Counted from the first letter of the stretch, positions 15,704 through 58,453 are shown. The stretch is 64,000 nucleotides of DNA from Candidatus Nomurabacteria bacterium (GCA_021413905.1 JAIOPO010000005.1:146957-210956); one strand, 5' to 3'. Program-made: numbers and translations. The notes: generated by a model from the sequence alone, not told the origin.

Positions 15704-15964
15704 ATGTACTACTTTTATGTATTAAGATTTCATAAAAATAAAAAACTATATTATGGTTTTACAAATGATTTAAAGCGCAGAATAAAAGAACATAGAGCTG
15801 GAAATTCTGATTTTAGTTCTAAAAATGGAATATTTGACTTAATCTTCTATGAAGCTTATATTAGTAAAGAGGATGCTAGAGAAGCAGAAAAATATTTCAA
15901 AACAGGACATGGAAGAGAGGTTTTGAAAAATAAATTGAAAAATTATTTTGGAGGCGTCGCATAG
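15704..15964 (+). CDS. GIY-YIG nuclease superfamily protein (YhbQ/URI-like, about 86 aa); its 3' end overlaps the 5' end of tRNA-Ser.
   Basis: MYYFYVLRF...KLYYGFTNDLKRRIKEHRAG is a GIY-YIG core. The ATG at 15704 is preferred over the upstream TTG at 15656. The stop codon TAG lies inside GGAGGCGTCGCATAG, which is the start of the tRNA. Confidence 0.75.
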   Translation: MYYFYVLRFHKNKKLYYGFTNDLKRRIKEHRAGNSDFSSKNGIFDLIFYEAYISKEDAREAEKYFKTGHGREVLKNKLKNYFGGVA

Positions 15965-16036
15965 TGGTTTAGTGCACCTGTCTTGAAAACAGGAGTACCG
16001 CAAGGTACCGTGAGTTCGAATCTCACCGCCTCCGCC
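15950..16036 (+). tRNA. tRNA-Ser (anticodon TGA) with a long variable arm.
   Basis: GGAGGCGTCGCATAGTGGTTTAGTGCACCTGTCTTGAAAACAGGAGTACCGCAAGGTACCGTGAGTTCGAATCTCACCGCCTCCGCC; the anticodon loop is CTTGAAA. Confidence 0.85.
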
Positions 16037-16112
16037 TTGACAACCTGTTAGTTTCGTGTCCCGACTGCCTGAGGTGGCAGTGCGACCCGAGTGCTACCAT
16101 GGTTGTAACAAA

Positions 16113-16146
16113 AACGGAGCATAATGTGCTCCGTTTTTGTTTTTTC
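16113..16146 (+). terminator. Intrinsic terminator downstream of tRNA-Ser.
   Basis: aACGGAGCAtaatgTGCTCCGTtttttgttttttc. Confidence 0.65.
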
Positions 16147-16199
16147 TTCTATAATTTCTCCGAAAAAATTGAATTTGGTACGTATGCTAGAATTAGCAT

Positions 16200-19100
16200 G
16201 TGGATCAATATATACAGCCCATCACAAAGGTATTCACCTCTTTTGAAGAGGCTAAGAACGATGTCGACCAAAATGGTCACTCGTCTCTTTTCATTGATGA
16301 CCGCAAGATACTCAGCCTTACTGACCTCGCCCAAGGAAACCGTAATTTAATCGTTGGCGAGCCGGGCGTTGGAAAGACCGAGCTTCTGAAGAAATTTAAG
16401 GCGCACCATGACACCCTTGGCGACAAGACATGCTTGGTTAATCTTCGCATCGGAAGTCCGATTGAACAGATTGATTCCTTTTTAAAAGAAACGACAACAG
16501 CAAAAAAGGTTCTCATTCTCGACGCACTCGACGAGGTTCGCTCGTCTATTTTCCCGAATGTGCTTCAAAAAATAGAGACTGTATCAAAAGAGAATCCTGA
16601 TCTGATCATTTATCTGTCTTCTCGCTGGATATTCGTAAGCAAATACGCCAACAGCTTTCCGGACTTTCGATTCATCAGAATTCTGCCGTTCTCGACATGG
16701 CAGGTGAAAAAATATCTCATGCATGCCGGACACACTGAGGCTGATGTCGATGCGCTCCTTGCGCGGATCATGCATTTCAATCACGGAAAGCTTTTGGTTC
16801 AAATTCCTCGGTATCTATTTTTCCTAGTTGCCTTTATAAAAGACAAGACCATCGCAAACGTTTCTCAGATATCGAGAAACGAGCTGTTTGAATACTTCAT
16901 TTACTCCAAGCTCGACATTGAGGACAAAAATCTTAACACCGACACGAAGGCGGTCATCAAGCGCATACTGGAAAAACTCGCACTGACAATGGAAATATAT
17001 CAGGCGAACACCATTACGAAAGATGAGCTTATGACATTCTTCGACGATATCGAGTCAGATCTCAAACTGACCGTGCTTTCACATATTACGCTTGAAGTCT
17101 TTTATGCGAAGACTATTCTTCAGGAAAGTACACAGGATCTCAACAGTGTTGAATTTGAAAACGCCGAATTCCAAGAATATCTCGCGGCAAAGGAAATTAC
17201 ACGCTTCTCCGAACCGCACCGTGTCGCTTTCGACTTCGCCGTCGAGGAAAATATCGATGAGATACTTCCGTCATGGTTCAATACGCTCACGTTTCTCGTC
17301 GATATGATTCCCGACATACTCGAACAGCTCTTGGAATTCTCAGGTCTGAGAAGCGGAACATTCAAGATTGCCGATGAAGGATTTTTAAATTTTCTCGGCA
17401 GAGTGAATCCAACAAGCATCTCGTCTGAATTTCGAAGCCGTATATTCATGGACGTAATCAACTATCACGAAAAGACCTTGCAATGGATTCCGGGGCAACT
17501 GACCCATTCGCTTCCGGGCTTCTTCAGTATTGCTCTTGAGGCAGATCTCAAGCGTCTTGCGGAAAGTGCAGAAAAAGAAACTGGCACAAATTATTTCGTG
17601 AAGCTCGGGAATATTGCGTATACGGTTGCGTACTTGTTTGATGCAAAAGTCGCACTCGACAAACCGTACTGGCGCGAAAAACTAATCTCCTACACAAAAG
17701 ACAAAAATGAAAACGGTGTATTGCAACGCCATGCGCTTTTGGCTCTCGAAAAGCTTGGCGACCCAACCGTCATCGACGAGCTACCGAATCTATTACTCGG
17801 GAATGACGAGCTGGTCGCGCGCGAATTTGTATCTGCCTGCATCGCGCTCGATCCAGACCACCCGAAGAGTGTTATCTATGCGATGCAATTGATAAAAGAT
17901 GGTGAGCTGTCCGGTCGGTATGGACTGTTTGAAATGAAAAAGAAATCATCCATCGTTGCCTTTTTCAAGGAATACATAAAAGATGACAAGTTCAGAAAGG
18001 AATTCCTCGATGATGTCCCTATCCTAGGTGAGCAGGATGTCGCGCTCGTCAAAAACATTGAAGCGATTCTCGATGATGAAATTGCGGAACTGTGTAAGGA
18101 GGTTATTGCAAAATCAATCGAAAGCTACCTCCACCAGTCAATCGACCAGTCTGCGTTCGTGAACGGATTGTTTCAATTGCTCAAGAAAAGGGACTCGGGA
18201 TTCATATCAGAAATAGTCAGACGTTTACACAAGGACGATGAGAAAAAACATACCCTGTACTTCGCCCAAGAAACATTTGCGCGAATACTTGGAAAAGACG
18301 ACATCGTTCCATTCCTCGGTGTCATGATTGAGCTTGGTCAACAGAAGATGGCGATGGATACGATGGTTAGAATTAAATATTCCAAGCGCGATGCCTGCGA
18401 AGAAATGTTCGAGTTTGGAAGAAGCAAGTTGCCGACGGAATATGCTGAGTGGGAGGCGGCTATTCAGCGGGGCACACCTCCGGCGGATACTTCACGGACG
18501 GATAAAATGCTCAAGGAATTCAGATTGTACCTACAACCCAAAAAGGGAGAATTTACGATGGGTGTTTTTCATCATTATATCCACGCCGCTGACACACTCG
18601 ATCCGCTCCTAACGAAAAAGGATAAAGACCGACTGATCGAATTGATTACCGGCAGTGTCTTGAACCAAAATCCGACAGCGCATGGCTTCACTATTCAATC
18701 AGAACATCCAGATGGCGGCACTCAACGATACACTACGAGCCAAGTCGTCCAGATGTTTGGTGATGCTCTCCGCGCCGCTCAGCGACTTGGTGTCGATATC
18801 ACTCCGTACCGAAAAAATATCGCGCTCTATATTCCATTCGCATACAGCGAAGAACTTAAAACTATTTTCGAGCTGATTAAAGACTTCAAGCCGGACGAGC
18901 TTGATCCGGTCATTGCGATATATCAGGAGAAAAAAGATGACCTCTGGCGACACCAACCAGAAAGCTTTGCGAATCTCGCACAACAGTATCATCTAGTTGC
19001 GGCAGTTCCCGTACTCCGCGATTTTGTGAAAGAGTCTCGCTTCCGTATCTACAATAGATGCGAGATGTTGAGGATTATTGATTCTCTTGCACCCGATGCC

Positions 19101-20282
19101 GGTTTTCTCAAGGAGATATTCGATCTTTACATCAACAGCGAAAACGAAAAAGAGATTGCGTATATTGCAAACGGTCTTTTGATTACTTCCCACGCCAACG
19201 CCGACGCTATTAACTGGCGACTCGAGGAAATAAAGAAACGCCCATTTGCTTCAAGTCTTCGACCTTACGGAGTAGTCCATAATGTTGGAGTAGAAGAAAA
19301 CGAGTTGCGTCACGATAAGCCGTTTGCCAAGCCACTCTCCGAACTCAAATATTCGGGATTTGAAGAAAAATATCTCGAACTGCTTGATAGCGCGATTGAG
19401 GTCTGGTCTCGTGGGAAGCAGTTTCAGGAGTACGCACAATATATGTGGGAAATCGTGCATTCCTATTTTGAAAATCTCAAAGAGGATCGAGACTACAGAC
19501 CGCTCAGAATGCTCGAAGAAAAAATTGCTACGCTCAAAAATAAAGAAGGGGCAAACTGGCTCGCTTCAAGCATGGTTCGCTTGCGCCGTTCGTATTTGGC
19601 GTATCTTGGAAAGCCGAAGAATTTCTCTGAGGCAATTCGTAACTACAACAAGGCACGAACATTTGAGGAAAAGAAAATCCGCAATTCTGCCGATTTGTTC
19701 CATCACTTACAAGACGTAATCAGTACCGAAATAAAACAATGGGTTGTTGACGATGGAGCATACAATATCATCGTCTCGAAAAAGAAGTACGCAAAAGAAA
19801 ATAAGGAATATGAAAAGCTTGTGCAAATGACAATCGGATCTGAAATCAGTAACGCATGCAGAGGACGCGGTTTTAGAATTGATCTGGCTCGCGAACAGCA
19901 GAAGCTCGATGGGAAGAAAACAGATTTCATTGTCCGTTACGGCTTCGTGGGTCCTATCGTACTCGAAGTGAAGCTCGGCTCCAGTTCGGATTTAAAAATG
20001 AAAAATCCTGAGAATTCAAAATCCTACGAGAGTATGGGAAATTACATGAAGGGATACGGTGCTTCACACGGTATTTTCCTGATCATGGATGACACTGGCG
20101 CAAAGCACATTATGAGAGCAAAGGAAGTGTTCAACCGTATCCCGAGCGTATCAGCAATGGTTCTCGACTGCTTCACTCCGGCGACAAAAAACCAAGCTCG
20201 AAAAACATCGACAACCAAGAAAAAATTAACAAAGAAAAAGTCTGTTGAAAAAACCAAAAAGGCTACTGCGAAAAAATCATAA
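16200..20282 (+). CDS. STAND/NACHT-type P-loop NTPase of 1360 aa with a central HEAT-repeat region, a C-terminal PD-(D/E)xK nuclease-like domain and a Lys-rich tail. Candidate antiviral NLR-like defense protein.
   Basis: Walker A LIVGEPGVGKTELLKKF and Walker B KKVLILDALDEV are present, followed by LIIYLSSR. HEAT/PBS-lyase-like repeats are seen at LQRHALLALEKLGDPTVIDELPNLLLGNDELVAREFVSA. The C-terminus ...KKTDFIVRYGFVGPIVLEVKLGSS gives a D...ExK arrangement, and the tail is KKKLTKKKSVEKTKKATAKKS. The start is GTG at 16200, directly after an in-frame TAG. Confidence 0.75.
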   Translation: MDQYIQPITKVFTSFEEAKNDVDQNGHSSLFIDDRKILSLTDLAQGNRNLIVGEPGVGKTELLKKFKAHHDTLGDKTCLVNLRIGSPIEQIDSFLKETTTAKKVLILDALDEVRSSIFPNVLQKIETVSKENPDLIIYLSSRWIFVSKYANSFPDFRFIRILPFSTWQVKKYLMHAGHTEADVDALLARIMHFNHGKLLVQIPRYLFFLVAFIKDKTIANVSQISRNELFEYFIYSKLDIEDKNLNTDTKAVIKRILEKLALTMEIYQANTITKDELMTFFDDIESDLKLTVLSHITLEVFYAKTILQESTQDLNSVEFENAEFQEYLAAKEITRFSEPHRVAFDFAVEENIDEILPSWFNTLTFLVDMIPDILEQLLEFSGLRSGTFKIADEGFLNFLGRVNPTSISSEFRSRIFMDVINYHEKTLQWIPGQLTHSLPGFFSIALEADLKRLAESAEKETGTNYFVKLGNIAYTVAYLFDAKVALDKPYWREKLISYTKDKNENGVLQRHALLALEKLGDPTVIDELPNLLLGNDELVAREFVSACIALDPDHPKSVIYAMQLIKDGELSGRYGLFEMKKKSSIVAFFKEYIKDDKFRKEFLDDVPILGEQDVALVKNIEAILDDEIAELCKEVIAKSIESYLHQSIDQSAFVNGLFQLLKKRDSGFISEIVRRLHKDDEKKHTLYFAQETFARILGKDDIVPFLGVMIELGQQKMAMDTMVRIKYSKRDACEEMFEFGRSKLPTEYAEWEAAIQRGTPPADTSRTDKMLKEFRLYLQPKKGEFTMGVFHHYIHAADTLDPLLTKKDKDRLIELITGSVLNQNPTAHGFTIQSEHPDGGTQRYTTSQVVQMFGDALRAAQRLGVDITPYRKNIALYIPFAYSEELKTIFELIKDFKPDELDPVIAIYQEKKDDLWRHQPESFANLAQQYHLVAAVPVLRDFVKESRFRIYNRCEMLRIIDSLAPDAGFLKEIFDLYINSENEKEIAYIANGLLITSHANADAINWRLEEIKKRPFASSLRPYGVVHNVGVEENELRHDKPFAKPLSELKYSGFEEKYLELLDSAIEVWSRGKQFQEYAQYMWEIVHSYFENLKEDRDYRPLRMLEEKIATLKNKEGANWLASSMVRLRRSYLAYLGKPKNFSEAIRNYNKARTFEEKKIRNSADLFHHLQDVISTEIKQWVVDDGAYNIIVSKKKYAKENKEYEKLVQMTIGSEISNACRGRGFRIDLAREQQKLDGKKTDFIVRYGFVGPIVLEVKLGSSSDLKMKNPENSKSYESMGNYMKGYGASHGIFLIMDDTGAKHIMRAKEVFNRIPSVSAMVLDCFTPATKNQARKTSTTKKKLTKKKSVEKTKKATAKKS

Positions 20283-20648
20283 TTCGATTTCATTCTTGAA
20301 CGTGTCGAGCGCCATCTCGAACGCATCGAGTCGCGTGCCGGTGCATAGCCCTCCGCACAAGCTGTCTTCGCCATCTGCCATGGCTTTTTCGCTCTCATAT
20401 ATTTCGTACATATATCCCTCGTTCATCTCGCTCCACTCGATTGAAATATACAGTGGCTTTTCGGCCGTGCTGTGTTTTTTACACCACAGACTGTCATCCG
20501 TCGCTCGCTCGGGACAGATGCGACAAAACTCCCAGTCTTTCCGATCCTCCACGTTCACTTTCTCCCAACATCCGTCGCACAGTCCGTTCTCGAACGGCTC
20601 GCTCATCGAGTTCGACGGACATCCTTTCTGTTTGCAAAAATATGCCAT
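20277..20648 (-). CDS. Small Cys-rich, multi-CxxC zinc-binding protein of 123 aa.
   Basis: Five Cys pairs: FCKQKGC, LCDGCW, FCRICP, WCKKH and LCGGLC. It lies between the NACHT gene and the serine recombinase. Confidence 0.5.
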   Translation of the reverse strand: MAYFCKQKGCPSNSMSEPFENGLCDGCWEKVNVEDRKDWEFCRICPERATDDSLWCKKHSTAEKPLYISIEWSEMNEGYMYEIYESEKAMADGEDSLCGGLCTGTRLDAFEMALDTFKNEIEL

Positions 20649-20649
20649 G

Positions 20650-21993
20650 TTATTTTTCTTCGTTTTCTTTTAGTAAAGTAATTTTCTTGTTGTTCAGTAC
20701 CAATCTCGTCCGCAGGTGACCCATCAGCTCGCGCTTCTCAAGCGGCGTACCCTCGCGGAGGACGTACTTCGCGTACTCTCTTGTATTCACATCGTCCTCG
20801 TTGATTGAATACTTCGGTGTACCTTTGGTCGCCAGTCGTTGTAGCCGGTTGAATCGTTTGATTTCTTCCTCCAGTTTCATTCGCATTCCCAGTTCATTGA
20901 TGCTCACTTGATCAATTACCTTGAACAGTTCCTCGATCAATTCTTCCTCGCGGATGTATTTGTTCTTGCAGTTGCGATCTCTTGCCTTCGAGCAGGAGTA
21001 GTAGACATACTTGGCCGTCGTCGTGTCTTTTAGCTCCTTGTACTTCTCCTGCGCCGTGATACCCGAGCCACATAGTCCGCAGGTAAACAATTTCGTGAAT
21101 GCGAATTCTCGATTTTCTCGCACAATCTTGTCTCGTTTCAGTTGCTCTTGTGCTTTCTCGTACAGTTCTTTCGTTATGATCGGCTCATGCTTCCCGTCGT
21201 ACCAATTGCCGGAGTCTCGGGGATACTCGAATGGTCCGTAGTAAATCGGCATGTTGAATATTCGGTACACTCCGCTCAGTGTCAGCGGCCGATTTCCTCT
21301 GGTGTGGAAATTCAGATCGAATCTGAGCCAGTTGTACACCTTTCGTCCGCTCCACCCCTCGTATGCCACTTTCTCGAACATTTTCCGGACGATCGGGGCG
21401 CGGTCGGGGTCGATTGCGATCTGGCATTTCCGGTCGAGCAGTTTCTGGTTCAGATACCCAAGCGGTGCCATGCCCGGCCAGAGTCCCATCTCAACCCTCG
21501 TTCGCAGTCCGCGCTTCACGTTAATGCCTCGGTTGTCGTTTTCGAGCTTCGCTTGCGAGCCGAGAATCATGAGCAGGAATTTCTCGTTCGGGTTGTTTCC
21601 GAACGTCTGCCCGAAGGTGCGTATCTGGTGCAATTTTCCCGCGTCCATGAGGTCGACAATTTTCCCGAGGTCACCCGCGTTTCTACTAATTCGATCCGGT
21701 GCCCATGTCAGGATGCCGTTGAACTTTCCGGCTCGCAGTTCGTCGATGATCTCGTTGAACACTGGCCGCTGACCCGTCTCTTTCGCGCTGTGACTCTCAC
21801 GCTTCATGGTCACAATCTCCAACCCCTCGCGCTCGGCCAGTTGGAGCATCTCCTTGATCTGGCTGTCGATGCTGAGCACCTGCCTCTCTTCCGACTCTGT
21901 CGATTTTCTCGCGTAGAGGCAGTATTTCATCTTGATCGGGATGACTACTTTGGCCGTCGTCCCTAATGGCGCTTGCGTTTGTGTATGGTTCAT
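20650..21993 (-). CDS. Large serine recombinase, integrase type, copy R1.
   Basis: YARKSTESEERQVLSIDSQ is the resolvase catalytic-Ser region. A recombinase domain follows, then the CGLCGSG...CSKARDRNC zinc ribbon and a C-terminal coiled-coil. The probable start is the M of MNHTQ... at about 21993, although the ORF is open to 22080. It is paralogous to 37815-39134 and 53409-54737. Confidence 0.85.
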   Translation of the reverse strand: MNHTQTQAPLGTTAKVVIPIKMKYCLYARKSTESEERQVLSIDSQIKEMLQLAEREGLEIVTMKRESHSAKETGQRPVFNEIIDELRAGKFNGILTWAPDRISRNAGDLGKIVDLMDAGKLHQIRTFGQTFGNNPNEKFLLMILGSQAKLENDNRGINVKRGLRTRVEMGLWPGMAPLGYLNQKLLDRKCQIAIDPDRAPIVRKMFEKVAYEGWSGRKVYNWLRFDLNFHTRGNRPLTLSGVYRIFNMPIYYGPFEYPRDSGNWYDGKHEPIITKELYEKAQEQLKRDKIVRENREFAFTKLFTCGLCGSGITAQEKYKELKDTTTAKYVYYSCSKARDRNCKNKYIREEELIEELFKVIDQVSINELGMRMKLEEEIKRFNRLQRLATKGTPKYSINEDDVNTREYAKYVLREGTPLEKRELMGHLRTRLVLNNKKITLLKENEEK

Positions 21994-22049
21994 ACATCTA
22001 CAGGAATGACGCAATACCGCTATGGAGTCCAGAGCGTCCCGAGTGGTAG

Positions 22050-22060
22050 GTGTTGGTAAC
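22050..22060. promoter_or_regulatory. Recombinase-associated conserved core GTGTTGGTAAC; putative attachment-site core at the R1 site.
   Basis: The same 11-mer recurs at 27696, 39189, 54793 and as GCTGTTGGTAAC at 58454. The left arm ...GATGACGCAA..AGAGCGTCCC is shared with the R3 site. Confidence 0.45.
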
Positions 22061-22083
22061 TTTTTTCTTGATATACTCACTAT

Positions 22084-22497
22084 ATGTCATACAAAGAACG
22101 AGCGCAGAGTTGGTACAAGCGTGCGATAATGGAAACCGATGAGTTCCTAAAATTCGTCCTACTCTTCATTGCAGTAGAAGCATTGCTTGAAGGGCAAAAA
22201 ATATATGCACTGAAAACCAAACCTAGATTATTAGAGACAATCGACCCGAAAGACATATCGATTCTTCGAGAGGCCTTAGATGCAAGACCACACCAAAATA
22301 TGGACGCGGATGGAGACCAAACATGGAACGGTAGATTGGAAAGTGATACGGACTGGATTGGAATTATTCTATTCTTAGCCCGAGCGAGAAATAATCTTTT
22401 TCATGGCGATAAGGCGTACGACGAGGAACGCGATATCTTTATTGTTACATACGGGAATAAAATGATTGAACCGATCGTAAAAAATTTACTTTCATAA
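22084..22497 (+). CDS. HEPN-like domain protein; putative RNase toxin or Abi component.
   Basis: The C-terminal R-x4-6-H motif ARARNNLFHG sits on a predicted all-helical 137-aa protein. Confidence 0.4.
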   Translation: MSYKERAQSWYKRAIMETDEFLKFVLLFIAVEALLEGQKIYALKTKPRLLETIDPKDISILREALDARPHQNMDADGDQTWNGRLESDTDWIGIILFLARARNNLFHGDKAYDEERDIFIVTYGNKMIEPIVKNLLS

Positions 22498-22821
22498 AAT
22501 ATCAAAAGGATTAAACTCTCGAATTTCTTTTTCAAGTCGATCCATTTCTTTCAGCATCCGCATCATGATTTTAATCGACCGCTTTTTCTTCTGTTCACCA
22601 TGTAGCCCAAGCAAATACTCGGCATCTTCATCGGGGATGAATGACGCGAGCGATATATATGAGGCGCACAAAAGTTGAATGCGCTCCTTGATGGCGCGTT
22701 TCAAATTCCGTTTCGATTCCGGCAAATCCGAAATTTTGTTGAACGCGTATCTTGGCTCGGATTCGTTATTATCGTATTTAAAATGTTGGCTGGCCTTAAT
22801 GACCTCTTCGATGTCGTCCAC
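22492..22821 (-). CDS. Hypothetical protein of 109 aa.
   Basis: ORF only; it is adjacent to the HEPN gene and overlaps it. Confidence 0.35.
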   Translation of the reverse strand: MDDIEEVIKASQHFKYDNNESEPRYAFNKISDLPESKRNLKRAIKERIQLLCASYISLASFIPDEDAEYLLGLHGEQKKKRSIKIMMRMLKEMDRLEKEIREFNPFDIL

Positions 22822-22879
22822 ACCCCATTGGATGACACAGACGGCACAGAATACCTAAGCCTGTCGGAGTTAGTAACTA

Positions 22880-23473
22880 TTACTCGCAAATTCCAGAAGA
22901 TACTTGCAAAGTTCCGCTATCAGAAAAAATACACATCGGGAGTTTCGTCGTATGGTCGTAGACGGTGATACCGCTTGGCTGACCTGTTGATCCGACCGTC
23001 AATTGCCCCATGCTCGCAGTTCCAAATCCTGCGGTGCCGGAAACAGACAAATCGGTATTGATGGTTAGAGAATTTACCGTCCCCGTATCAGTCCTAAAAT
23101 CACTAGCGGAAAGACTGCTCGCGCTGAAGTAGGTTGACGACCCATCAGTCGCGGCTGGAATATAGATAGACTGCAATCCTTGCTTGTCTGGATCATACGT
23201 TAGATTGTTTGAAAATCTGAGAAGTGCGGAGAGTTTATCTTTCGAAATCGTTTGCTCGATCAGCTTATTAAAAACACCTGTGGCGAGATTTGAAATGGAA
23301 TCGTCGGTATAAACTTTCGGGGGAACAATCTTAACTGGAGTCACCTTGCTCTTTATCGGAGCGACCACCTGTTTTGTCGCACTGCCTGTGACGGCGAATG
23401 CCGTGTGTATTTCCGTTGCTGAAAATACAGTGATTAATAAAATGGTAATTGATAGTAATAAAGTTTTACGCAT
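22880..23473 (-). CDS. Secreted hypothetical protein with a signal peptide.
   Basis: MRKTLLLSITILLITVFSATEIHTAFA signal peptide, followed by a Ser/Thr-rich mature part. Confidence 0.55.
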   Translation of the reverse strand: MRKTLLLSITILLITVFSATEIHTAFAVTGSATKQVVAPIKSKVTPVKIVPPKVYTDDSISNLATGVFNKLIEQTISKDKLSALLRFSNNLTYDPDKQGLQSIYIPAATDGSSTYFSASSLSASDFRTDTGTVNSLTINTDLSVSGTAGFGTASMGQLTVGSTGQPSGITVYDHTTKLPMCIFSDSGTLQVSSGICE

Positions 23474-23631
23474 CGCTTAATTTAATTGCAAATAGTTTGC
23501 ATTAGTAATAATGATCCGAGTGTAATCCACAGATAATAGTAAGTCAAGTAGTTGCAAACAATTTGCATTTGTATTATTATAGCCTTGCTGTTGTCATTTC
23601 ACTTATAAGCTATTAATAACTAATAAAAGTC

Positions 23632-24558
23632 ATGAATAAAAAATATGCAATCGGGCTTGTTCTCGGAATAGCGTTCATTGGGATTCTTACTTTGGTAATA
23701 AAAGATGGAAAACATGCCCCATCGGCATCGGTCGGTAAAATACAGGTTTCCACGAGCTTCTATCCTCTCTACTACTTCGCAAGCCGTATTGGTGGCGATA
23801 AAGCAGTCGTGACAAACATCACGCCCGCCGGAGCAGAGCCGCACGACTATGAGCCGACCCCGGGTGCTATCGCGGGAATTGAGAATAGCAAACTTCTCGT
23901 ACTCCAAGGTACTGGTCTTGAGGCATGGGGTGCTGATGTAAAAAAGAATATCGACCCGAACAAAACAACCGTCATCACTGTCGGACAAGACTTGATGACT
24001 CAGAACGTGGTTGAAGATGGAAATACTGTCATTGATCCGCATACATGGCTCGCACCGACGCTTGCCGAGAAAATGGCTGACAAGATTCTTGCTGGATATG
24101 TTTCTGTCGATCCTGCGAATGAAGCGTACTACCAAGAGAATGAGGCACAACTCAAAGCCGAGCTTGCTAGTCTTGATTCTGAATACAAACAAGGACTTGC
24201 AAGCTGTGCATCGAAAGACATTGTTACCTCGCACGCCGCCTTCGGATATCTCGCTACCGTCTATGGTCTCAATCAAGTTCCAATTTCAGGTGTTTCGCCC
24301 GATGCCGAGCCATCACCCAAACAGCTCGCCGATGTTGCCGATTTTGTAAAAAAGAACGGCGTGAAGTATATTTTCTTCGAGAGCTTGGTTTCTCCAAAGC
24401 TGTCCGAGACAATCGCTCGCGAAACAGGTGCACAAACGATGGTGCTTGATCCCATTGAGGGCATCACCCCCGAAGACCTCGCGAAAGGTATAGACTATAT
24501 GAGCGTCATGCGAAGCAATCTGCATAATCTTGAAACAGTACTCGAATGCAAAGCGTAA
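23632..24558 (+). CDS. znuA: Metal (Zn/Mn) ABC transporter substrate-binding protein, ZnuA/TroA family.
   Basis: Signal or anchor sequence, FYPLYYFASRIGGDKAVVTNITPAGAEPHDYEPTP, and the TroA-like fold pattern. Confidence 0.8.
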   Translation: MNKKYAIGLVLGIAFIGILTLVIKDGKHAPSASVGKIQVSTSFYPLYYFASRIGGDKAVVTNITPAGAEPHDYEPTPGAIAGIENSKLLVLQGTGLEAWGADVKKNIDPNKTTVITVGQDLMTQNVVEDGNTVIDPHTWLAPTLAEKMADKILAGYVSVDPANEAYYQENEAQLKAELASLDSEYKQGLASCASKDIVTSHAAFGYLATVYGLNQVPISGVSPDAEPSPKQLADVADFVKKNGVKYIFFESLVSPKLSETIARETGAQTMVLDPIEGITPEDLAKGIDYMSVMRSNLHNLETVLECKA

Positions 24559-25319
24559 ACCATTCAAAAAACATAGTTGAAGTTAAAAACGTATCATTTT
24601 CATATGGGTCTGAACTCGTGCTTGAAAACATCAGCTTCGATGTCCACGAAGGTGATTATCTCGGTATAGTGGGTCCTAATGGTGCGGGCAAGACGACACT
24701 CTTGAAAATCATGCTTGGGCTTTTGAAACCCGCGAGCGGTTCAATCAGCTTGTTCGGTACGTCACTATCGGATTTCAAGGACTGGCGAAAGATCGGCTAT
24801 GTTCCGCAAAAAGCAACTAATTTTGATTCCGGTTTTCCGGTGAGTGTGTACGATGTCGTCCTGATGGGATGTTACAACTACAAAGGTCTGTGTTGTCGTA
24901 TCAATACGGGAGACTGTTCCATTGTGGAACGCGTACTAAAGCAGGTTGGCATGTGGGAGTATAGAGATCGTCTGATTGGCGATCTATCCGGTGGACAGCA
25001 ACAGCGCGTGTTCATTGCCCGCGCTCTTGCGACCGAACCGAAAATAATCTTTCTTGATGAACCAACTACCGGAGTAGACAAGAAAATGCACGACGAATTC
25101 TATGACTTGTTGCGTACACTCAACCGTGATGCGGGATTGACGCTTGTGCTTATCTCTCACGATATCGAAAAGATTACCGAAGAAGCCATGCACATCGCCT
25201 GCATTGATCGAACACTTGTCTGTCATACAAGCCCCGAAGAATTTTTGAAGGAAAGCGAATCAAAAAATATGTTTGGTGAAAAAGTTAAAATCGTTAGTCC
25301 GCATCATCACGCCCATTAA
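24546..25319 (+). CDS. znuC: Metal ABC transporter ATP-binding protein.
   Basis: Walker A GPNGAGKTT, the LSGGQQQR signature and Walker B IIFLDEPT. Confidence 0.85.
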   Translation: MQSVNHSKNIVEVKNVSFSYGSELVLENISFDVHEGDYLGIVGPNGAGKTTLLKIMLGLLKPASGSISLFGTSLSDFKDWRKIGYVPQKATNFDSGFPVSVYDVVLMGCYNYKGLCCRINTGDCSIVERVLKQVGMWEYRDRLIGDLSGGQQQRVFIARALATEPKIIFLDEPTTGVDKKMHDEFYDLLRTLNRDAGLTLVLISHDIEKITEEAMHIACIDRTLVCHTSPEEFLKESESKNMFGEKVKIVSPHHHAH

Positions 25320-25323
25320 ATAT

Positions 25324-26118
25324 ATGAATCTTTTTCAGTACACTTTTATTCTTCACGGACTCTCGGCGGGAATCATCGTTGCGGTCATCGCGCCGATGGT
25401 AGGTATTTTTCTTGTGCTTAAACGGTATTCGCTCATTGCCGACACGCTTGCACACGTTTCGCTCGCAGGAATTGCTATTGGTTTACTTGCAGGCATTAAT
25501 CCGGTCTTTACCGCGCTCGGTGCGACCGTGCTTGGTTCGCTCGGTGTAGAACGCCTCCGAATGTCGAAGAATGTCTACGGCGAATCAGCATTGGCGCTCT
25601 TTCTCTCAGGTTCGCTTGCGCTCGCAATTGTGTTGATCTCACTTGCTCGCGGATTCAATACCAACCTCTTCAATTATCTCTTCGGAAGTATTGTGACTGT
25701 CACAATCGGCGATGTGTACACAATCCTTTGCTTGGCGTTTGTCGTGATTGCAATCCTTGCGTTTTTTTACAGAGAAATAATATATGTCACTTTCGATGAG
25801 GATGCGGCGCAGGTTTCGGGTGTTAACACACGACGAATAAACACTATTCTCATTGTTCTCGCGGCACTTGTTGTGTCGCTCTCCATCCCAATTGTCGGAG
25901 TGCTTCTCATTGGAGCATTGATTGTCATCCCTGTCGTTTCCGCGCTTCAGCTCAGAAAGAACTTCATGAAAACAATTCTGTACGCGGAGATAATTTCCAT
26001 CTTCTCTGTCATTATCGGTATCATCGCCTCGTTCTATTTGAACATTTCCGCCGGAGGCGCGATTGTACTTCTCATGCTCGCAATTTTCTTTGGTATCTAT
26101 ATACTTAAAAAGAGATGA
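25324..26118 (+). CDS. znuB: Metal ABC transporter permease.
   Basis: Polytopic membrane protein immediately downstream. The ORF is open from 25273, but the MNLFQY start at 25324 avoids overlap with znuC. Confidence 0.8.
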   Translation: MNLFQYTFILHGLSAGIIVAVIAPMVGIFLVLKRYSLIADTLAHVSLAGIAIGLLAGINPVFTALGATVLGSLGVERLRMSKNVYGESALALFLSGSLALAIVLISLARGFNTNLFNYLFGSIVTVTIGDVYTILCLAFVVIAILAFFYREIIYVTFDEDAAQVSGVNTRRINTILIVLAALVVSLSIPIVGVLLIGALIVIPVVSALQLRKNFMKTILYAEIISIFSVIIGIIASFYLNISAGGAIVLLMLAIFFGIYILKKR

Positions 26119-26540
26119 AAGCAAAACAAGACTTCAACCAAATACTTCGTACTGCCGGACTAAAATGTACACCGCCTCGCTTGGCAGTGCTCGCTTTTCT
26201 CGCGAGTGGCGGACACTATATTAGTGCACAGGAAATTCATGAAAAATTGGGTAAGAAAAAAGGACTTGACCTTGTAACCGTCTACAGAACGCTCGCTTCA
26301 TTTGAGAAGGCGGGCATCATTAAGCGTGTCGATGTACGCAAGGATGCGATATACTATGAATACAATGAAGGACATCACCACCACATCATTTGCACGAAAT
26401 GCGACAAAGTCGCTGAATTCAGTAATACCGGCGACGAAGCACTTATTGAGAAAGCTCTCAAGCAAGTCAAAGGTTTCAGCTCTATCTCGCACCACTCATT
26501 CGACCTCTTCGGGCTTTGCGACACCTGTGCGAAGAAATAA
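26115..26540 (+). CDS. zur: Fur-family metalloregulator, probable Zur.
   Basis: Winged helix plus the HHHHIICTKCDKVAEF ... CDTC metal sites; its stop overlaps the znuB frame. Confidence 0.8.
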   Translation: MKAKQDFNQILRTAGLKCTPPRLAVLAFLASGGHYISAQEIHEKLGKKKGLDLVTVYRTLASFEKAGIIKRVDVRKDAIYYEYNEGHHHHIICTKCDKVAEFSNTGDEALIEKALKQVKGFSSISHHSFDLFGLCDTCAKK

Positions 26541-27696
26541 GTTAGCGGTTACTCTCGCAGTTTTTGGTCTGCTTGTTTTTTGCGCGAGCGCGATTCCTCA
26601 CAATGCTCACGCTCAGGAACTTATGCAAGATAAGATAACGGTAGTTAGAGCGCGTGTTGATTCCGTTGTTACAAAAGTTCCCGAGGATGTGAAAGGGCTT
26701 GATGTCGCATCTCCCGATCAAACGGTGACGGCTACAATACTTGAGGGCGATCAAGCAGGGCAACAAACCACTTTTGATAATGACTACGTCCAACTGAAAA
26801 GTGGCGATACGTTTTTCCTCAATATCACTGTTCGTGCCGAAGACCAGAGTGTTTATTACAATGTCGAAGATCCTGACAGACTGCCGATACTTGGAATCTT
26901 TGCACTAATTTTTGTTCTCCTTGTGATTCTCATTGGTGGCAAGCAAGGTGTGCGCGGACTTGTCACACTGCTCGGCAGTTTCGTCCTTATTCTCTATGTT
27001 CTCGTTCCGGGCATCCTTCACGGCTATTCTCCGATTCTGATCGCCATCGGAGTATCTTCACTCATTATTATCATCGGTTCATATGTTACGCATGGATTCA
27101 ACAAGACGACATCGTGTGCAGTAGCTGGTATGATTGCCACCGTCATCGTGACAGGAATTCTTGCATACATTGCTGTACACGCAGGACGATTCACTGGATA
27201 CGGCACGGAGGAAGCCACATATCTCAGTATGAATGCGCGCGGGCATATAGACATGCTCGGACTTTTACTCGGAGGAATCATGATCGGGCTTCTCGGCGTA
27301 CTCTATGATGTCGCTATCAGCCAAGCAATAACTGTCGAGGAACTGCATCATATTGCTCCGCATATTGGGAAAGGCGTTATTTTCAAACGCTCCATGCGTG
27401 TCGGGCGCGAACATATTGGTGCACTCGTGAACACTCTTGCAATCGCATATGTCGGTGCCTCACTTCCGCTCTTACTTTTGTTCGCTACACCGCCAGTCGA
27501 TGTCATGCTCACGGTGAATCGAGAAATCTTTGCCGCAGAAATTATCCGTATTCTCATCGGTAGTATTGGACTTGTGCTTGCTGTGCCAATCGTGACGGCT
27601 CTTGCCGTAATGGTTTTGGTTAAAGTAAAAAAAGTTGATGACTCGACAAAAAGGGAGGAGTATAAGGCACTTGAGCATTATTCGCATCATCACTAG
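26527..27696 (+). CDS. YibE/F-like polytopic membrane protein with an N-terminal signal peptide.
   Basis: GTG start giving RRNKLAVTLAVFGLLVFCASAIPHNAHA, followed by more than 8 TM helices. The longer ORF that begins at 26302 overlaps zur and was rejected. Confidence 0.6.
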   Translation: MRRNKLAVTLAVFGLLVFCASAIPHNAHAQELMQDKITVVRARVDSVVTKVPEDVKGLDVASPDQTVTATILEGDQAGQQTTFDNDYVQLKSGDTFFLNITVRAEDQSVYYNVEDPDRLPILGIFALIFVLLVILIGGKQGVRGLVTLLGSFVLILYVLVPGILHGYSPILIAIGVSSLIIIIGSYVTHGFNKTTSCAVAGMIATVIVTGILAYIAVHAGRFTGYGTEEATYLSMNARGHIDMLGLLLGGIMIGLLGVLYDVAISQAITVEELHHIAPHIGKGVIFKRSMRVGREHIGALVNTLAIAYVGASLPLLLLFATPPVDVMLTVNREIFAAEIIRILIGSIGLVLAVPIVTALAVMVLVKVKKVDDSTKREEYKALEHYSHHH

Positions 27697-27706
27697 TGTT
27701 GGTAAC
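27696..27706. promoter_or_regulatory. GTGTTGGTAAC core (putative att core) overlapping the TAG stop codon of the YibE/F gene; followed by the right arm CTCGCTACACAATAA.
   Basis: cactaGTGTTGGTAACctcgctacacaataatc; the right arm is similar to those at 39200 and 58466. Confidence 0.45.
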
Positions 27707-27788: not shown

Positions 27789-27943
27789 GACCTAACCCCG
27801 AAAGGCCTTGTGGCTTCTCGGATATGGTCAAAAAACCGCTACAGTATAAAAGACTCCTCGTCAGAGTCACTGTAGCGGTCGTATCCGGAAACGGGTATGG
27901 GTTTAGCCGAAAGGCTGAATCGCGATGGCGAGGAGTCTTTTAT
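27789..27943 (+). ncRNA. Structured leader RNA copy 1 of the novel motif: promoter-proximal, covarying helices, GAAA tetraloop hairpins and a terminal intrinsic terminator.
   Basis: GACCUAACCCC[ccga..ucgg]GGAUAUGGUC AAAAAA [ccgctacagt AUAAAAGACUCCUCGUCAGAGUC actgtagcgg] UCGUAUCCG-GAAA-CGGGUAUGG [agcc-GAAA-ggct] ..GGCGAGGAGUCuuuu. The 3' segment CGAGGAGUC is complementary to GACUCCUCG in the apical loop. Confidence 0.6.
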
Positions 27944-32194: not shown

Positions 32195-32591
32195 GGTTTC
32201 TAATCGACGAGAGCTTCAACGCCGCCTTTATTTGCTTCCGTTCCTCCTTAGTGAGTGCTTCTTCCTCCGCAAGTCCTTTCACTTCGAGCGTGTCGCCGTA
32301 GCGATCGCTGTGCGTCTTCAGATACAAAGCAATAGCCTTAAACTCCTTGTCGCCGATGAGCGAGAAGAGCTGGGTTTCCGCGATGTCGCACATGAAATTG
32401 CGGCCTTCTTCAAGCGCGGCATCCATCGCTTTCTCGAAGGACTTCTTCTCCTTGACCCATCGGTAAATGGTCGCGCGGGAGAGCTTCACCTTTTGGCACG
32501 CCTGCTCTATCACCGGCGTGCGTTTCAGTTGCTCGATGAACGCCTCCTTGAGCGCATCCTGCCGAGCTTTAATTGAATCTTTCCTACTCAT
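32166..32591 (-). CDS. Small HTH protein, putative terminase small subunit, module A.
   Basis: HTH KLSRATIYRWVKE; it overlaps the TerL start and is paralogous to 42028-42423. Confidence 0.45.
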   Translation of the reverse strand: MSRKDSIKARQDALKEAFIEQLKRTPVIEQACQKVKLSRATIYRWVKEKKSFEKAMDAALEEGRNFMCDIAETQLFSLIGDKEFKAIALYLKTHSDRYGDTLEVKGLAEEEALTKEERKQIKAALKLSSIRNHVKKTQKRE

Positions 32592-35990: not shown

Positions 35991-36277
35991 AGGGAGGGTT
36001 TGCATTTTAGAAAACACTTTTGAAATCCGTCAAGACCGTTTTCACCCTCTAAAATTTGTAAATGAGACAGTGCTGAAAACCGCGTTTTTGTGTCTCATCT
36101 GTAACATTCACAAATATGAGACCGCGACCCACAAAGCTAATTTTAACGGGTGCGAGTATCCGAAACAACCCTTGTGGGGGTTGGGAGTCTGGGTACCGTA
36201 CCCACGTACACCGCCATTGACAGGTAGCACGAGATGCACACAAAAAGCACCTACTAGGTGCTTTTTGTGTTTAATAA

Positions 36278-39134: not shown

Positions 39135-39188
39135 ACATATATTAATGACAGAAAAAGAGCCTTTTGCTAAGGATTAATCATTGGCAAC

Positions 39189-39199
39189 GTGTTGGTAAC
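39189..39199. promoter_or_regulatory. GTGTTGGTAAC core 55 nt upstream of R2, flanked on the right by the arm TTCGCTTAACAAAAATA and leader RNA copy 2.
   Basis: ggcaacGTGTTGGTAACttcgcttaacaaaaatag. Confidence 0.45.
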
Positions 39200-39285
39200 T
39201 TCGCTTAACAAAAATAGTTATATGCGATAGGATTGATGGATTAATACAGACATATGCTGTATTATGTATATATAATTTAATAACC

Positions 39286-48763: not shown

Positions 48764-48832
48764 GACAACCTGTTAGTTTTGATGACCCATTTAGTTATGT
48801 ACTAAGTGCGACCCACAAACCTACATGTTGCA

Positions 48833-54737: not shown

Positions 54738-54792
54738 AACTACATTGATGACGCAAATCGTCCTAGGAGTCTAGAGCGTCCCACCGCCATAG

Positions 54793-58439: not shown

Positions 58440-58453
58440 GATTTGAAATCTAG

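What the first reader, a model, noticed from the sequence alone, without database searches (positions are those of the whole stretch)
16037..22060. About 6-kb mini-island next to tRNA-Ser carrying a single large NACHT-HEAT-nuclease gene, a Cys-rich small protein and serine recombinase R1
The interval between the tRNA-Ser trailer and terminator (16037-16146) and the R1-associated core (22050) holds only three genes: the 1360-aa STAND protein, a 123-aa multi-CxxC protein and the recombinase. A possible core variant GGTTGTAAC lies at 16101-16109 in the tRNA trailer. A minimal integrative element whose only cargo is a defense-like gene is a compact defense-mobilising unit.
Basis: inference. Interest (0 to 1): 0.6.

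Follow-up and report, generated by a model that had tools for sequence, protein, structure and literature searches.

The report
Recombinase-and-cargo arm of tRNA-Ser island
The 6-kb stretch is real but is only the recombinase end of a 20-kb phage-derived island inserted at a serine tRNA gene in a tiny-genome (Patescibacteria) bacterium, and its large defence-like gene sits in a slot where related islands carry other accessory genes.

Summary
The sequence features are as described. tRNA-Ser(UGA) is followed by a 110-nt trailer with a terminator, a 1360-aa STAND-like gene, a 123-aa Cys-rich gene, a large serine recombinase (R1) and the motif GTGTTGGTAAC at 22050.

Foreign DNA (GC 0.45-0.55 against a 0.30 host) runs from 16037 to about 36216. 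That 20.2-kb block also carries ZnuABC/Fur/YibEF, a LOOT RNA, terminase subunits, two methylases and an Mrr nuclease. Two more paralogous islands, with R2 and R3, follow in tandem.

R1 belongs to a recombinase family abundant in Patescibacteria. About 53 of 58 informative copies lie convergent to a tRNA-Ser, separated by the conserved trailer and a cargo slot of 0-9 kb. The slot holds STAND in one other lineage and Septu-, Gabija-, PARIS-, Shedu-, restriction- or metal-resistance-type genes elsewhere.

Among 54 relatives anchored on the host gene RuvX, most tRNA-Ser sites are empty and only 4 carry this trailer, so the site is polymorphic.

The 6-kb unit is bracketed by a degenerate 31-nt direct repeat, so autonomous movement is not excluded. 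GC content, assembly-graph breakpoints and tRNA-like junction arms favour the 20-kb island as the inserted unit.

The parts
15950..16036 (+). tRNA-Ser(UGA), the chromosomal integration target. Its 3' end CCGCC is the probable crossover overlap.
   Evidence: ARAGORN and Rfam. RuvX followed by tRNA-Ser is conserved in 80 metagenome loci. Empty sites end ...CTCCGCA followed by AT-rich host DNA.
16037..16146 (+). Conserved trailer, the left end of the island. It begins TTGACAAC, contains a hairpin and GACCCGAGTG-type motifs, and ends in a terminator at 16107-16141.
   Evidence: Present after the tRNA-Ser in all recombinase-bearing loci and absent from empty sites. A second copy at 48757-48863 has no tRNA (nhmmer E 6e-20). 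GC rises exactly here.
16078..16109 (+). Left copy of the imperfect direct repeat: a tRNA-3'-like arm GCGACCCGAGTGCTACC plus GGTTGTAAC.
   Evidence: 16 of 19 identity to 22030-22048, with 2 of 300 shuffles as high. Family-wide, 10 of 38 loci have p<=0.05, and the repeat co-varies in L031.
16200..20282 (+). 1360-aa STAND-like P-loop NTPase (DUF8371 family) with helical repeats and a C-terminal D...ExK domain. It occupies the cargo slot.
   Evidence: A 77%-identical copy sits in the same slot in L005/L155.
20277..20648 (-). 123-aa Cys-rich protein whose start codon is 1 nt from the R1 stop codon (translationally coupled to R1). Function unknown.
   Evidence: ORF coordinates. Homologs. A 78%-identical copy is convergent with a STAND C-terminal fragment on L154. 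Absent from L005.
20650..21993 (-). Large serine recombinase R1 (447 aa from ATG 21993; the ORF is open to 22080).
   Evidence: Pfam Resolvase, Recombinase and Zn_ribbon_recom. Best NCBIfam match is CcrB, E 4e-34, below cut-off. 88% identical to R3 and 61% to R2. 455 relatives in GTDB genomes.
22005..22060 (+). Conserved recombinase-upstream site (AATGACGCAA...GGAGTCCAGAGCGTCCCGAGTGGTAG) ending in the exact 11-mer GTGTTGGTAAC (22050-22060). It is a homology breakpoint.
   Evidence: Nucleotide homology to L004, L005 and L006 stops at 22060/61.
22061..27706 (.). Segment X1, bracketed by two exact copies of the 11-mer. It holds p137, p109, p197, ZnuA/C/B, Fur and YibE/F, and has the same high GC as the rest of the block.
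   Evidence: p109 recurs next to the recombinase-proximal core in 11 loci.
27789..27921 (+). LOOT RNA (RF03000), 93 nt downstream of the 11-mer copy at 27696.
   Evidence: Rfam 75.2 bits against a gathering score of 46.4. The upstream module is conserved.
30740..34648 (-). Island backbone: terminase large subunit (30740-32194), terminase small subunit (32166-32591) and two DNA methylases (32584-33348, 33323-34648).
   Evidence: PHROG phrog_38 E 1e-80 and terminase small-subunit PHROGs. Pfam N6_N4_Mtase. Paralogs are present in islands B and C.
36191..36270 (+). Right end of the 20.2-kb block: a degenerate tRNA-3'-like arm GGGTACCGTACCCACGTACACCGCCA (36191-36216), then TTGACAGG and a short trailer with terminator (36238-36270) that begin island B.
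   Evidence: Sequence. GC falls here. The same arm class occurs in L029, L043 and L079. Logan contigs break at 36210/36211.
37815..39411 (.). Island B recombinase R2 (37815-39134, -), 11-mer at 39189 and LOOT RNA at 39286-39411.
48733..48863 (+). Junction of islands B and C: a tRNA-3'-like arm (GGTTCTAACACGAGACCGCCCGCA) followed by a full trailer, with no tRNA.
   Evidence: The same arm class occurs in L090 and L023.
53409..58668 (.). Island C recombinase R3 (53409-54737, -), 11-mer at 54792, a segment with 839-aa and 355-aa ORFs, a near-exact 11-mer at 58454 and LOOT RNA at 58547-58668.

Best explanation
Window 16037-22060 is the recombinase-proximal arm of a phage-derived genomic island of about 20.2 kb (16037 to about 36216), integrated at the 3' end of the chromosomal tRNA-Ser(UGA) gene of a low-GC Patescibacteria (Paceibacteria-type) host. 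It is the first of at least three paralogous islands in tandem.

The integrase is a large serine recombinase from a clade specialised on tRNA-Ser genes. In this clade, the island's left end is a conserved trailer of about 110 nt that abuts the tRNA 3' end. A cargo slot of 0-9 kb follows, then the recombinase gene reading back toward the tRNA, then a conserved upstream site ending in GTGTTGGTAAC. The STAND-like gene and the Cys-rich gene are the slot's cargo here.

Inferred mechanism: the recombinase recombines an attP, made of a tRNA-3'-like arm plus the trailer, with the tRNA 3' end. The crossover is probably in the shared CCGCC. The tRNA stays intact, and repeated insertions at the same site stack up. 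Cargo is swapped between related islands, so the slot works as a hotspot for defence and accessory genes.

Shown here: the anatomy, the family-wide linkage, site polymorphism among relatives, and the compositional boundaries. Inferred: the crossover position, recombinase activity, and a defence function for the STAND gene.
For: - GC content is 0.28-0.30 up to 15900, then 0.43-0.57 from 16037 to about 36200, then 0.28-0.32. There is no drop to host level at 22060.
- Logan contigs from SRR15633504 cover window positions up to 15978, then 16007-36240, then 36211-53394. With k=31, the graph branches at 16036|16037 and at 36210|36211. That is exactly what a coexisting island-free junction (...TCCGCC + ATTGACAGG...) with crossover in CCGCC would produce (sequences). 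There is no branch at 22050.
- About 53 of 58 recombinase copies with enough flanking sequence are convergent to a tRNA-Ser, with a gap of 101 nt to 9.3 kb.
- The trailer is conserved in all of those loci. It is absent from empty tRNA-Ser sites of host relatives, where only 4 of 54 carry it.
- The trailer occurs without any tRNA next to R3 and in the 56-kb viral contig L090, preceded by recurring tRNA-like arm classes.
- Islands A, B and C share recombinase, LOOT RNA, terminase large subunit and methylases in the same order.
- Viral contigs carry two recombinase copies about 15-17 kb apart.
- Cargo differs between recombinases that are 95-97% identical: STAND in L005, other genes in L004 and L006.
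- Cargo families across 100 ORFs include PtuA, GajA, AriA, OLD, SduA_C, ResIII, methylases, HMA-ATPases and DsbA.
- The island is 74-85% identical at the nucleotide level to L005/L155, while the host flanks show no detectable nucleotide similarity.
Against: - The only module common to all loci is trailer, cargo, recombinase and core. L004's complete 9.2-kb insertion lacks LOOT, terminase and methylases, and ends in a core-like TTGTTGGTAT rather than a tRNA-like arm.
- Homology between close relatives breaks exactly at the 11-mer.
- The 6-kb unit is itself bracketed by a 31-nt imperfect direct repeat.
- No capsid, portal or tail genes were recognised, so 'phage-derived' rests on the two terminase subunits.
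- The island-free junction is inferred from contig coordinates and was not seen in reads.
- No experiment supports recombinase activity or defence.
Confidence: 0.58

Rival explanations
1. The region is a composite array of the staphylococcal SCC type, built from separately integrated cassettes. The 5.95-kb unit from GGTTGTAAC (16101-16109) to GTTGGTAAC (22052-22060) is an autonomous recombinase cassette. It can excise and integrate on its own, carrying STAND and the Cys-rich gene. X1, the LOOT/terminase block and the other segments are older cassettes without a recombinase.
For: - There is a 31-nt imperfect direct repeat (a tRNA-like arm plus TTG..AAC) at both ends of the unit. Family-wide, 10 of 38 loci are significant, similarity to a locus's own site exceeds similarity to other loci's sites, and the repeat co-varies in L031.
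- The trailer-to-core module is the only universally conserved part, and it is 1.7 kb in the ten loci without cargo.
- Homology to L004, L005 and L006 stops at the 11-mer.
- Segments between 11-mer copies recur in other loci: L016, L018, L020, L021, L035 and L044.
- L004's whole insertion ends in a core-like motif.
- Long cargo slots contain tandem partial trailers in L061, L050 and L026.
- The recombinase's best named relative is CcrB.
Against: - The 6-kb unit, X1 and the LOOT/terminase block all have the same atypical GC, so three independent acquisitions would all need donors of similar GC.
- The source-sample graph has no branch at 22050 or 16101.
- The left repeat copy lies inside the trailer, and the trailer moves as a whole with R3.
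- The repeat is weak or undetectable in 28 of 38 loci.
Confidence: 0.27
2. The block is an old, immobile remnant at a conserved locus. The recombinase persists for another role, such as resolution or inversion, or is decaying. The arrangement next to tRNA-Ser is inherited vertically.
For: - The same arrangement (tRNA-Ser, trailer, cargo, recombinase) and partly the same host synteny occur in several lineages: L004/L194, L005/L155, L006 and L185.
- The att-like repeats are degenerate.
Against: - Most relatives have an empty site.
- There is a strong GC discontinuity.
- Island DNA is far more similar between lineages than the flanking housekeeping DNA is.
- The three recombinase ORFs are intact and highly conserved, with the catalytic YARKS motif.
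- The graph branch points fall at the island ends.
Confidence: 0.08
3. The high-GC block is an assembly chimera. It belongs to another organism in the sample and was joined to this contig through the shared tRNA-Ser sequence.
For: - The tRNA-Ser is a separate branching unitig in the Logan graph on both sides, at 15949 and at 16036.
- The block's GC matches that of the L005/L006-type genomes.
Against: - Two chimeric joins would be needed.
- The right join uses a 30-mer (36211-36240) that spans the island A arm and the island B trailer, and it is present in both adjacent unitigs.
- Tandem islands with the same junction grammar occur on many independent contigs.
Confidence: 0.05

Closest known systems
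SCCmec / SCC composite islands driven by Ccr large serine recombinases (Staphylococcus)
   Same: - A large serine recombinase, with CcrB as the best NCBIfam match.
- Insertion at the 3' end of a conserved housekeeping gene without inactivating it.
- Tandem accretion of units separated by short direct repeats, some units lacking a recombinase.
- Accessory and defence cargo.
   Different: - The target is a tRNA-Ser gene, not rlmH.
- There is a single recombinase, far below the Ccr equivalog cut-offs (118 bits against 900).
- The host is Patescibacteria.
- The units carry terminase genes and a LOOT RNA.
- The junctions contain tRNA-3'-like arms and a conserved 110-nt trailer.
Temperate-phage large serine integrases (phiC31, Bxb1, A118, TP901-1) and their prophages
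   Same: - The same three-domain architecture.
- The integrase gene lies at one end of the integrated element, next to an att site.
- Terminase genes are present in the element, and relatives occur in predicted viral contigs.
   Different: - By established knowledge, those integrases target protein-coding or intergenic sites rather than tRNA 3' ends.
- No structural genes were recognised here.
- No recombination directionality factor was identified.
- The att sites are only inferred.
tRNA-targeting genomic islands and phage satellites with tyrosine integrases, such as P4-like elements with defence hotspots
   Same: - Integration at a tRNA 3' end that preserves the tRNA.
- Displaced or degenerate tRNA-3' copies at the junctions, and tandem arrays.
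- A variable hotspot near the integrase that carries defence systems.
   Different: - The recombinase is a serine enzyme, not a tyrosine enzyme.
- The repeats are short and degenerate, in contrast to the long exact tRNA-derived repeats typical of tyrosine-integrase islands.
NACHT/STAND antiviral ATPases (Avs, bNACHT; NCBIfam EruA and HyoA)
   Same: - An N-terminal P-loop NTPase with weak NACHT, nSTAND3 and EruA similarity.
- A long helical-repeat middle region.
- A C-terminal effector-like domain with weak similarity to the HyoA C-terminus.
- A single large gene, patchily distributed across phyla.
   Different: - No PADLOC family matches.
- All Pfam and NCBIfam scores are far below the cut-offs.
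- There is no solved homolog.
- Its precomputed family is DUF8371, which is uncharacterised.
Integron cassette arrays
   Same: Variable segments lie next to a site-specific recombinase gene and are bracketed by copies of one short conserved site, the 11-mer between the recombinase and LOOT.
   Different: - The recombinase is a serine enzyme.
- The segments are multi-gene units of 2-7 kb with their own promoters.
- No attC-like folded sites are present.
- Only one or two segments occur per locus.

Membership tests
Large serine recombinase (serine integrase) | N-terminal resolvase catalytic domain with a catalytic serine | tested here: met
   Pfam Resolvase E 9e-20, 71.6 bits against a cut-off of 23.3. 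The motif LYARKSTESEE is invariant in R1, R2 and R3.
Large serine recombinase (serine integrase) | Recombinase domain plus a zinc beta-ribbon domain C-terminal to the catalytic domain | tested here: met
   PF07508 at 52.3 bits and PF13408 at 40.2 bits, both above their cut-offs.
Large serine recombinase (serine integrase) | Catalyses attP x attB recombination at a defined 2-bp crossover | not testable with these tools
   Only inferred, from junction anatomy and from contig break coordinates.
Integrated genomic island at a tRNA gene | Lies next to a tRNA 3' end and differs from the host in composition | tested here: met
   GC changes from 0.28 to 0.44 at 16037 and returns to host level at about 36250.
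Integrated genomic island at a tRNA gene | Presence or absence at the same locus varies among relatives | tested here: met
   Of 54 RuvX-anchored tRNA-Ser(tga) loci, 4 have this trailer, about 12 have a different recombinase element, and the rest are empty, with tRNA-Arg(gcg) 0.56-0.63 kb away in six of them.
Integrated genomic island at a tRNA gene | Flanking direct repeats derived from the target | tested here: inconclusive
   Only short, degenerate repeats are seen: CCGCC(N)TTGACA at 16032-16042 and 36211-36222, and recurring tRNA-3'-like arm classes.
   The GC boundaries are at 16037 and about 36216. The Logan contig is continuous across 22050. The trailer upstream of 16101 is element DNA.
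   The 31-nt imperfect repeat is significant in the window, with 2 of 300 shuffles as high, and in 10 of 38 family loci.
NACHT/STAND antiviral NTPase | NACHT or STAND NTPase domain above the family threshold | tested here: not met
   NACHT scores 16.8-21.1 bits against 26.7. nSTAND3 scores 15.7 against 27.2. EruA scores 30.7 against 1000. Walker A GEPGVGKT is present.
NACHT/STAND antiviral NTPase | Membership of a known defence family | tested here: not met
   PADLOC gave no relevant match.
NACHT/STAND antiviral NTPase | C-terminal nuclease effector | tested here: inconclusive
   - D1242, E1256 and K1258 (protein numbering) are invariant in 37 sequences.
- The model has pLDDT 82.
- Foldseek best E is 0.06, to MUS81 and restriction enzymes.
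- The HyoA C-terminus matches at E 3e-7.
- hhalign against the Mrr_cat protein was negative.
Prophage or phage satellite | Packaging genes | tested here: met
   Terminase large subunit matches phrog_38 at E 1e-80, and small-subunit PHROGs match at E 8e-7.
Prophage or phage satellite | Capsid, portal or tail genes | tested here: not met
   No Pfam or PHROG structural hits among the proteins of the 16-36 kb block.
SCC element (Ccr equivalog) | Recombinase reaches the CcrA, CcrB or CcrC equivalog score | tested here: not met
   CcrB scores 118 bits against a cut-off of 900.

The most novel reading that the evidence does not exclude
The large serine recombinase, the 11-bp site GTGTTGGTAAC and the orphan LOOT RNA could form one functional unit that captures DNA segments at the 11-mer. 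That would be an integron-like cassette platform driven by a serine recombinase. LOOT would act as a regulatory or guide-like RNA for the recombinase, or for packaging. It is always divergent from the recombinase, with the 11-mer 93-97 nt upstream. Under this reading the 6-kb recombinase cassette and the X segments would be individually mobile modules.
Probability: 0.12. Interest if true: 0.85.

Novelty: new variant of a known kind. Interest (0 to 1): 0.6.

Why it matters
Patescibacteria (CPR) have tiny genomes, and how they exchange genes is poorly understood. This analysis defines an abundant family of islands (455 recombinase relatives in species-representative genomes). These islands use a large serine recombinase, not the usual tyrosine integrase, to target tRNA-Ser genes. 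They stack in tandem and carry a defined slot filled with defence and metal-resistance genes. I found no description of this family in the searchable literature.

Three things follow:
- It gives a rule for finding accessory and defence genes in CPR genomes: look between a tRNA-Ser trailer and the convergent recombinase.
- It gives candidate att sites for a new set of serine integrases with a universally conserved target.
- It gives the first genomic context for LOOT RNA, an Rfam family for which I found no described function.

For the specific finding, the practical message is a correction. The 6-kb block is one module of a larger island, not a free-standing minimal element.

Tried and rejected
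- The default repeat search over 15.8-37 kb found no long direct repeat linking the junctions. The 31-nt repeat only emerged from targeted local alignment.
- I first considered a model in which each element runs from a core plus LOOT to the recombinase plus core, with LOOT as the element's left end. I dropped it because the tRNA-Ser and host synteny would then lie inside the element, and because minimal loci read tRNA-Ser, recombinase, core, LOOT.
- PADLOC, a PDB sequence search and hhalign against an Mrr_cat protein gave nothing for the STAND protein.
- RNAalifold on 30 trailers predicted no consensus structure, because the MAFFT alignment puts the hairpin arms out of register. The compensatory changes seen by eye therefore remain untested.
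- Literature searches for LOOT function, for CPR serine recombinases at tRNA-Ser, and for EruA/HyoA found nothing relevant.
- The exact product of 36278-37381 is not on record in the contig collection.
- The P0003 context (STAND homolog at 66% identity) has no adjacent recombinase, so STAND is not obligatorily linked to this recombinase.

Full report
**1. Observation**

- tRNA-Ser(tga) lies at 15950-16036.
- It is followed by a GC-rich stretch of about 110 nt ending in a 16-pair terminator hairpin at 16107-16141.
- Between that terminator and 22060 there are three credible genes:
  - A 1360-aa ORF on the plus strand (16200-20282).
  - A 123-aa Cys-rich ORF on the minus strand (20277-20648).
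  - A large serine recombinase, R1, on the minus strand (20650-21993, ORF open to 22080). It has Resolvase, Recombinase and zinc-ribbon domains above Pfam thresholds.
- GTGTTGGTAAC sits at 22050-22060. It occurs four times exactly in the window against 0.02 expected.
- The Cys-rich ORF starts 1 nt after the R1 stop codon. It has a 78%-identical full-length homolog and a widely shared C-terminal domain of about 50 aa, so it is a real gene.
- The 'NACHT-HEAT-nuclease' label is plausible but soft:
  - All NTPase and HEAT matches are below threshold.
  - PADLOC and PDB sequence searches are negative.
  - The nuclease call rests on an invariant D...ExK motif in 37 homologs, a confident alpha/beta model, non-significant fold matches to MUS81 and restriction enzymes, and weak partial matches to the named antiphage NACHT proteins EruA (N-terminus) and HyoA (C-terminus).
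- The protein belongs to a large family conserved over its full length (more than 200 hits, 42-77% identity, DUF8371). The family is scattered over Patescibacteria, Thaumarchaeota and Dormibacteraeota.

**2. The foreign block is 20 kb, not 6 kb**

- GC content is 0.28-0.30 up to the tRNA. It jumps to 0.43-0.57 at 16037 and stays there until about 36200. Then it returns to about 0.30. Nothing changes to host level at 22060.
- The rest of the block encodes:
  - p137, p109 and a 197-aa protein.
  - ZnuA, ZnuC and ZnuB, Fur, and YibE/F.
  - A LOOT RNA.
  - A superinfection-immunity/SHOCT protein and an HNH protein.
  - Terminase large and small subunits.
  - Two DNA methylases.
  - An Mrr-type nuclease.
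- In the Logan assembly of SRR15633504 the block is one 20,234-bp contig equal to window 16007-36240. The left neighbour ends at 15978, and the right neighbour covers 36211-53394.
- With k=31 this places graph branches at 16036|16037 and at 36210|36211.
- The tRNA ends ...TCCGCC|TTGACAAC. The right end of the block reads ...ACCGCCA|TTGACAGG.
- An island-free molecule formed by crossover in the shared CCGCC would read ...TCCGCC-ATTGACAGG. It would create branches at exactly those two positions.
- This is an inference from coordinates, not from reads. It matches to the base on both sides, and there is no branch at 22050.

**3. Three tandem islands**

- The window holds three paralogous recombinases on the same strand: R1, R2 (37815-39134) and R3 (53409-54737). 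R1 and R3 are 88% identical; R1 and R2 are 61% identical.
- Each has the 11-mer 50-90 nt upstream of its start.
- Each has a LOOT RNA further upstream, on the opposite strand.
- A second full trailer copy lies at 48757-48863 (E 6e-20), 4.5 kb downstream of R3. It is preceded not by a tRNA but by a degenerate tRNA-3'-like arm.
- A shortened version (CACCGCCA|TTGACAGG, then a terminator) marks the right end of the high-GC block.
- The three units share recombinase, LOOT, terminase large subunit and methylases in the same order.
- The window therefore reads:
  - tRNA-Ser
  - island A (16037-36216)
  - island B (36217 to about 48756)
  - island C (48757 to beyond 64000)

**4. Family-wide anatomy**

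- A scan of species-representative genomes found 455 relatives of the recombinase. The best 80 (68-95% identity) are almost all Patescibacteria MAGs.
- About 53 of 58 copies with at least 5 kb of downstream sequence are convergent to a tRNA-Ser, of any isoacceptor. The gap ranges from about 101-117 nt (ten loci, no cargo) up to 9.3 kb.
- The trailer follows the tRNA in all of them.
- The three closest relatives of R1 differ in cargo:
  - L005 (96% identity) has a 77%-identical STAND gene in the same slot, but no Cys-rich gene.
  - L004 (97%) and L006 (95%) each have four unrelated ORFs there.
- Over 100 cargo ORFs from 43 loci, the recurrent families fall into two groups:
  - Defence-type families: PtuA, GajA, AriA, OLD, SduA_C, ResIII/DEAD and methyltransferases.
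  - Other accessory functions: HMA P-type ATPases, thioredoxin/DsbA proteins, dehydrogenases and ABC transporters.
- The tRNA-to-recombinase interval is therefore a general accessory-gene slot, and STAND is one of many occupants.
- More distant relatives in viral contigs sit next to other tRNAs: Asp, Gln, Glu, Arg, Asn and Trp. Several viral contigs carry two recombinases about 15-17 kb apart.

**5.

- Anchoring on the host gene RuvX retrieved 80 metagenome loci (75-88% identity).
- RuvX followed by tRNA-Ser(tga) is conserved in them.
- Of 54 readable 3' flanks:
  - Only four carry this trailer, with a 90-97%-identical recombinase wherever the contig is long enough.
  - About twelve carry a different conserved trailer together with a distant serine recombinase (34-46% identity).
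  - The rest are empty. In six of the empty sites, the tRNA is followed by AT-rich DNA, a terminator, a small gene and tRNA-Arg(gcg) only 0.56-0.63 kb away.
- The block is therefore not conserved at this position, the trailer is element DNA, and the left junction is exactly the tRNA 3' end.
- L155 extends L005 into host DNA. That host has uniform GC of about 0.42, and its flank shows no nucleotide similarity to the window's flank. By contrast, STAND is 74% and the recombinase 85% identical at the nucleotide level. This pattern indicates horizontal transfer into the low-GC host.

**6. What supports the mini-island reading**

- The trailer segment 16078-16109 and the recombinase-upstream segment 22030-22060 form an imperfect direct repeat. 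Each consists of an arm, GCG(A/T)CCCGAGTG(C/G)TA, plus TTG..AAC.
- Across the family the similarity is significant in 10 of 38 loci, against about 2 expected by chance. It is higher for a locus's own pair than for other pairs. It co-varies in L031.
- Homology to L004, L005 and L006 stops exactly at the 11-mer.
- Segments bracketed by 11-mer copies lie between the recombinase and LOOT in many loci.
- L004 contains a complete 9.2-kb insertion that lacks LOOT, terminase and methylases. Its right junction with host DNA is a core-like TTGTTGGTAT.
- Long cargo slots contain tandem partial trailers.
- These facts fit an SCC-like composite in which the recombinase cassette is one separately mobile unit. 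I rate this rival at about 0.27.
- Against it stand the uniform GC of the whole 20 kb, the graph topology, and the trailer moving as a whole.

**7. Mechanism**

The anatomy, linkage, polymorphism and boundaries are shown by the evidence above. The mechanism that follows is inferred:

- The recombinase recombines an attP, made of a tRNA-3'-like arm plus the trailer, with the tRNA-Ser 3' end.
- The tRNA stays intact, so later insertions at the same site stack up.
- Cargo between the trailer and the recombinase is exchanged between islands.

No directionality factor was identified. p109, which recurs next to the recombinase-proximal 11-mer, is a candidate. The roles of the 11-mer and of LOOT remain unexplained.

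**8. Novelty**

- Known analogues are tRNA-site genomic islands, prophage defence hotspots and SCC composites.
- What appears undescribed in the searchable literature is a Patescibacteria-wide clade of large serine recombinases dedicated to tRNA 3' ends, with a conserved trailer, a defined cargo slot and a linked LOOT RNA.
- I classify it as a new variant of a known kind.
- The specific claim of a minimal 6-kb defence-mobilising element is only partly supported.

Noticed in passing
window 12834-12975(-), 27789-27921(+), 39286-39411(+), 58547-58668(+): There are four LOOT RNAs (Rfam RF03000, 75-82 bits). Three lie in the islands, each divergent from a serine recombinase. Each of those three has GTGTTGGTAAC (or CTGTTGGTAAC) 93-97 nt upstream with a TATAAT-like box, and is followed 50-100 nt later by an ORF on the same strand. 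LOOT also lies upstream of the recombinase in 33 of 80 genome loci. I found no described function, and the linkage to the recombinase appears to be new.
   Followed up: partly
window 22061-27706 and 54803-58464; also L016, L018, L020, L021, L035, L044: Multi-gene segments sit between the recombinase and LOOT, bracketed by direct copies of the 11-mer. Here they hold ZnuABC, Fur, YibE/F and p109 in one case, and 839-aa and 355-aa ORFs in the other. L035 has two such segments. The arrangement looks like site-specific cassette insertion, but the mechanism is unknown.
   Followed up: partly
window 22492-22821(-); L004:4164-4481, L018:9580-9906 and nine other loci: A small conserved protein, p109, has no family match. 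It recurs immediately upstream of the recombinase on the same strand, and its stop codon overlaps the 11-mer in L004 and L018. It is a candidate accessory or directionality factor.
   Followed up: partly
window 16037-16146 and 48757-48863; trailers in about 56 loci: The 110-nt trailer is more conserved than the tRNA body. By eye, a central hairpin changes by compensatory substitutions, for example CTGCC/GGCAG, TGCTC/GAGCA and TTAGT/ACTAA. RNAalifold on a MAFFT alignment found no consensus structure, so a structure is unproven.
   Followed up: partly
L171, L181, L186, L187, L202, L204, L205, L208, L220, L228, L230 (3' flank of tRNA-Ser(tga)): A second, distant serine recombinase family (34-46% identity to R1) occupies the same tRNA-Ser site in about 12 of 54 relatives of the host. 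It has its own conserved trailer (...AAATGGGGTCGGCGCGAAGCGCCG...ATTCCCCCC...).
   Followed up: no
window 44119-48610 (island B): Island B has a cluster of defence-like genes: a LexA-like S24 peptidase, a cyclase-like protein followed by a PycTM-domain protein (Pycsar-like), DUF2726 and a SIR2_2 protein. Island B's cargo slot (36278-37822) holds an HNH_5 protein that is 42% identical to a cargo gene of L004.
   Followed up: no
window 48865-53404 (island C cargo slot): R3's cargo slot carries a heavy-metal P-type ATPase (HMA/E1-E2), a DsbD_2/HMA protein and small ORFs. The same kind of cargo is found in three other loci of the family.
   Followed up: partly
L022 about 12945-13331; L007 about 12415-12560; L046, L051, L061, L050, L026: Near-intact or partial copies of the tRNA-Ser 3' half, each followed by a further trailer, lie distal to the real tRNA or inside long cargo slots. 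They look like scars of successive insertions at the same site.
   Followed up: partly
window 15656-15964: A GIY-YIG nuclease gene overlaps the 5' end of tRNA-Ser by about 15 nt on the host side. It is absent from the corresponding position in L004 and L155, so it may itself be a small mobile insertion.
   Followed up: no
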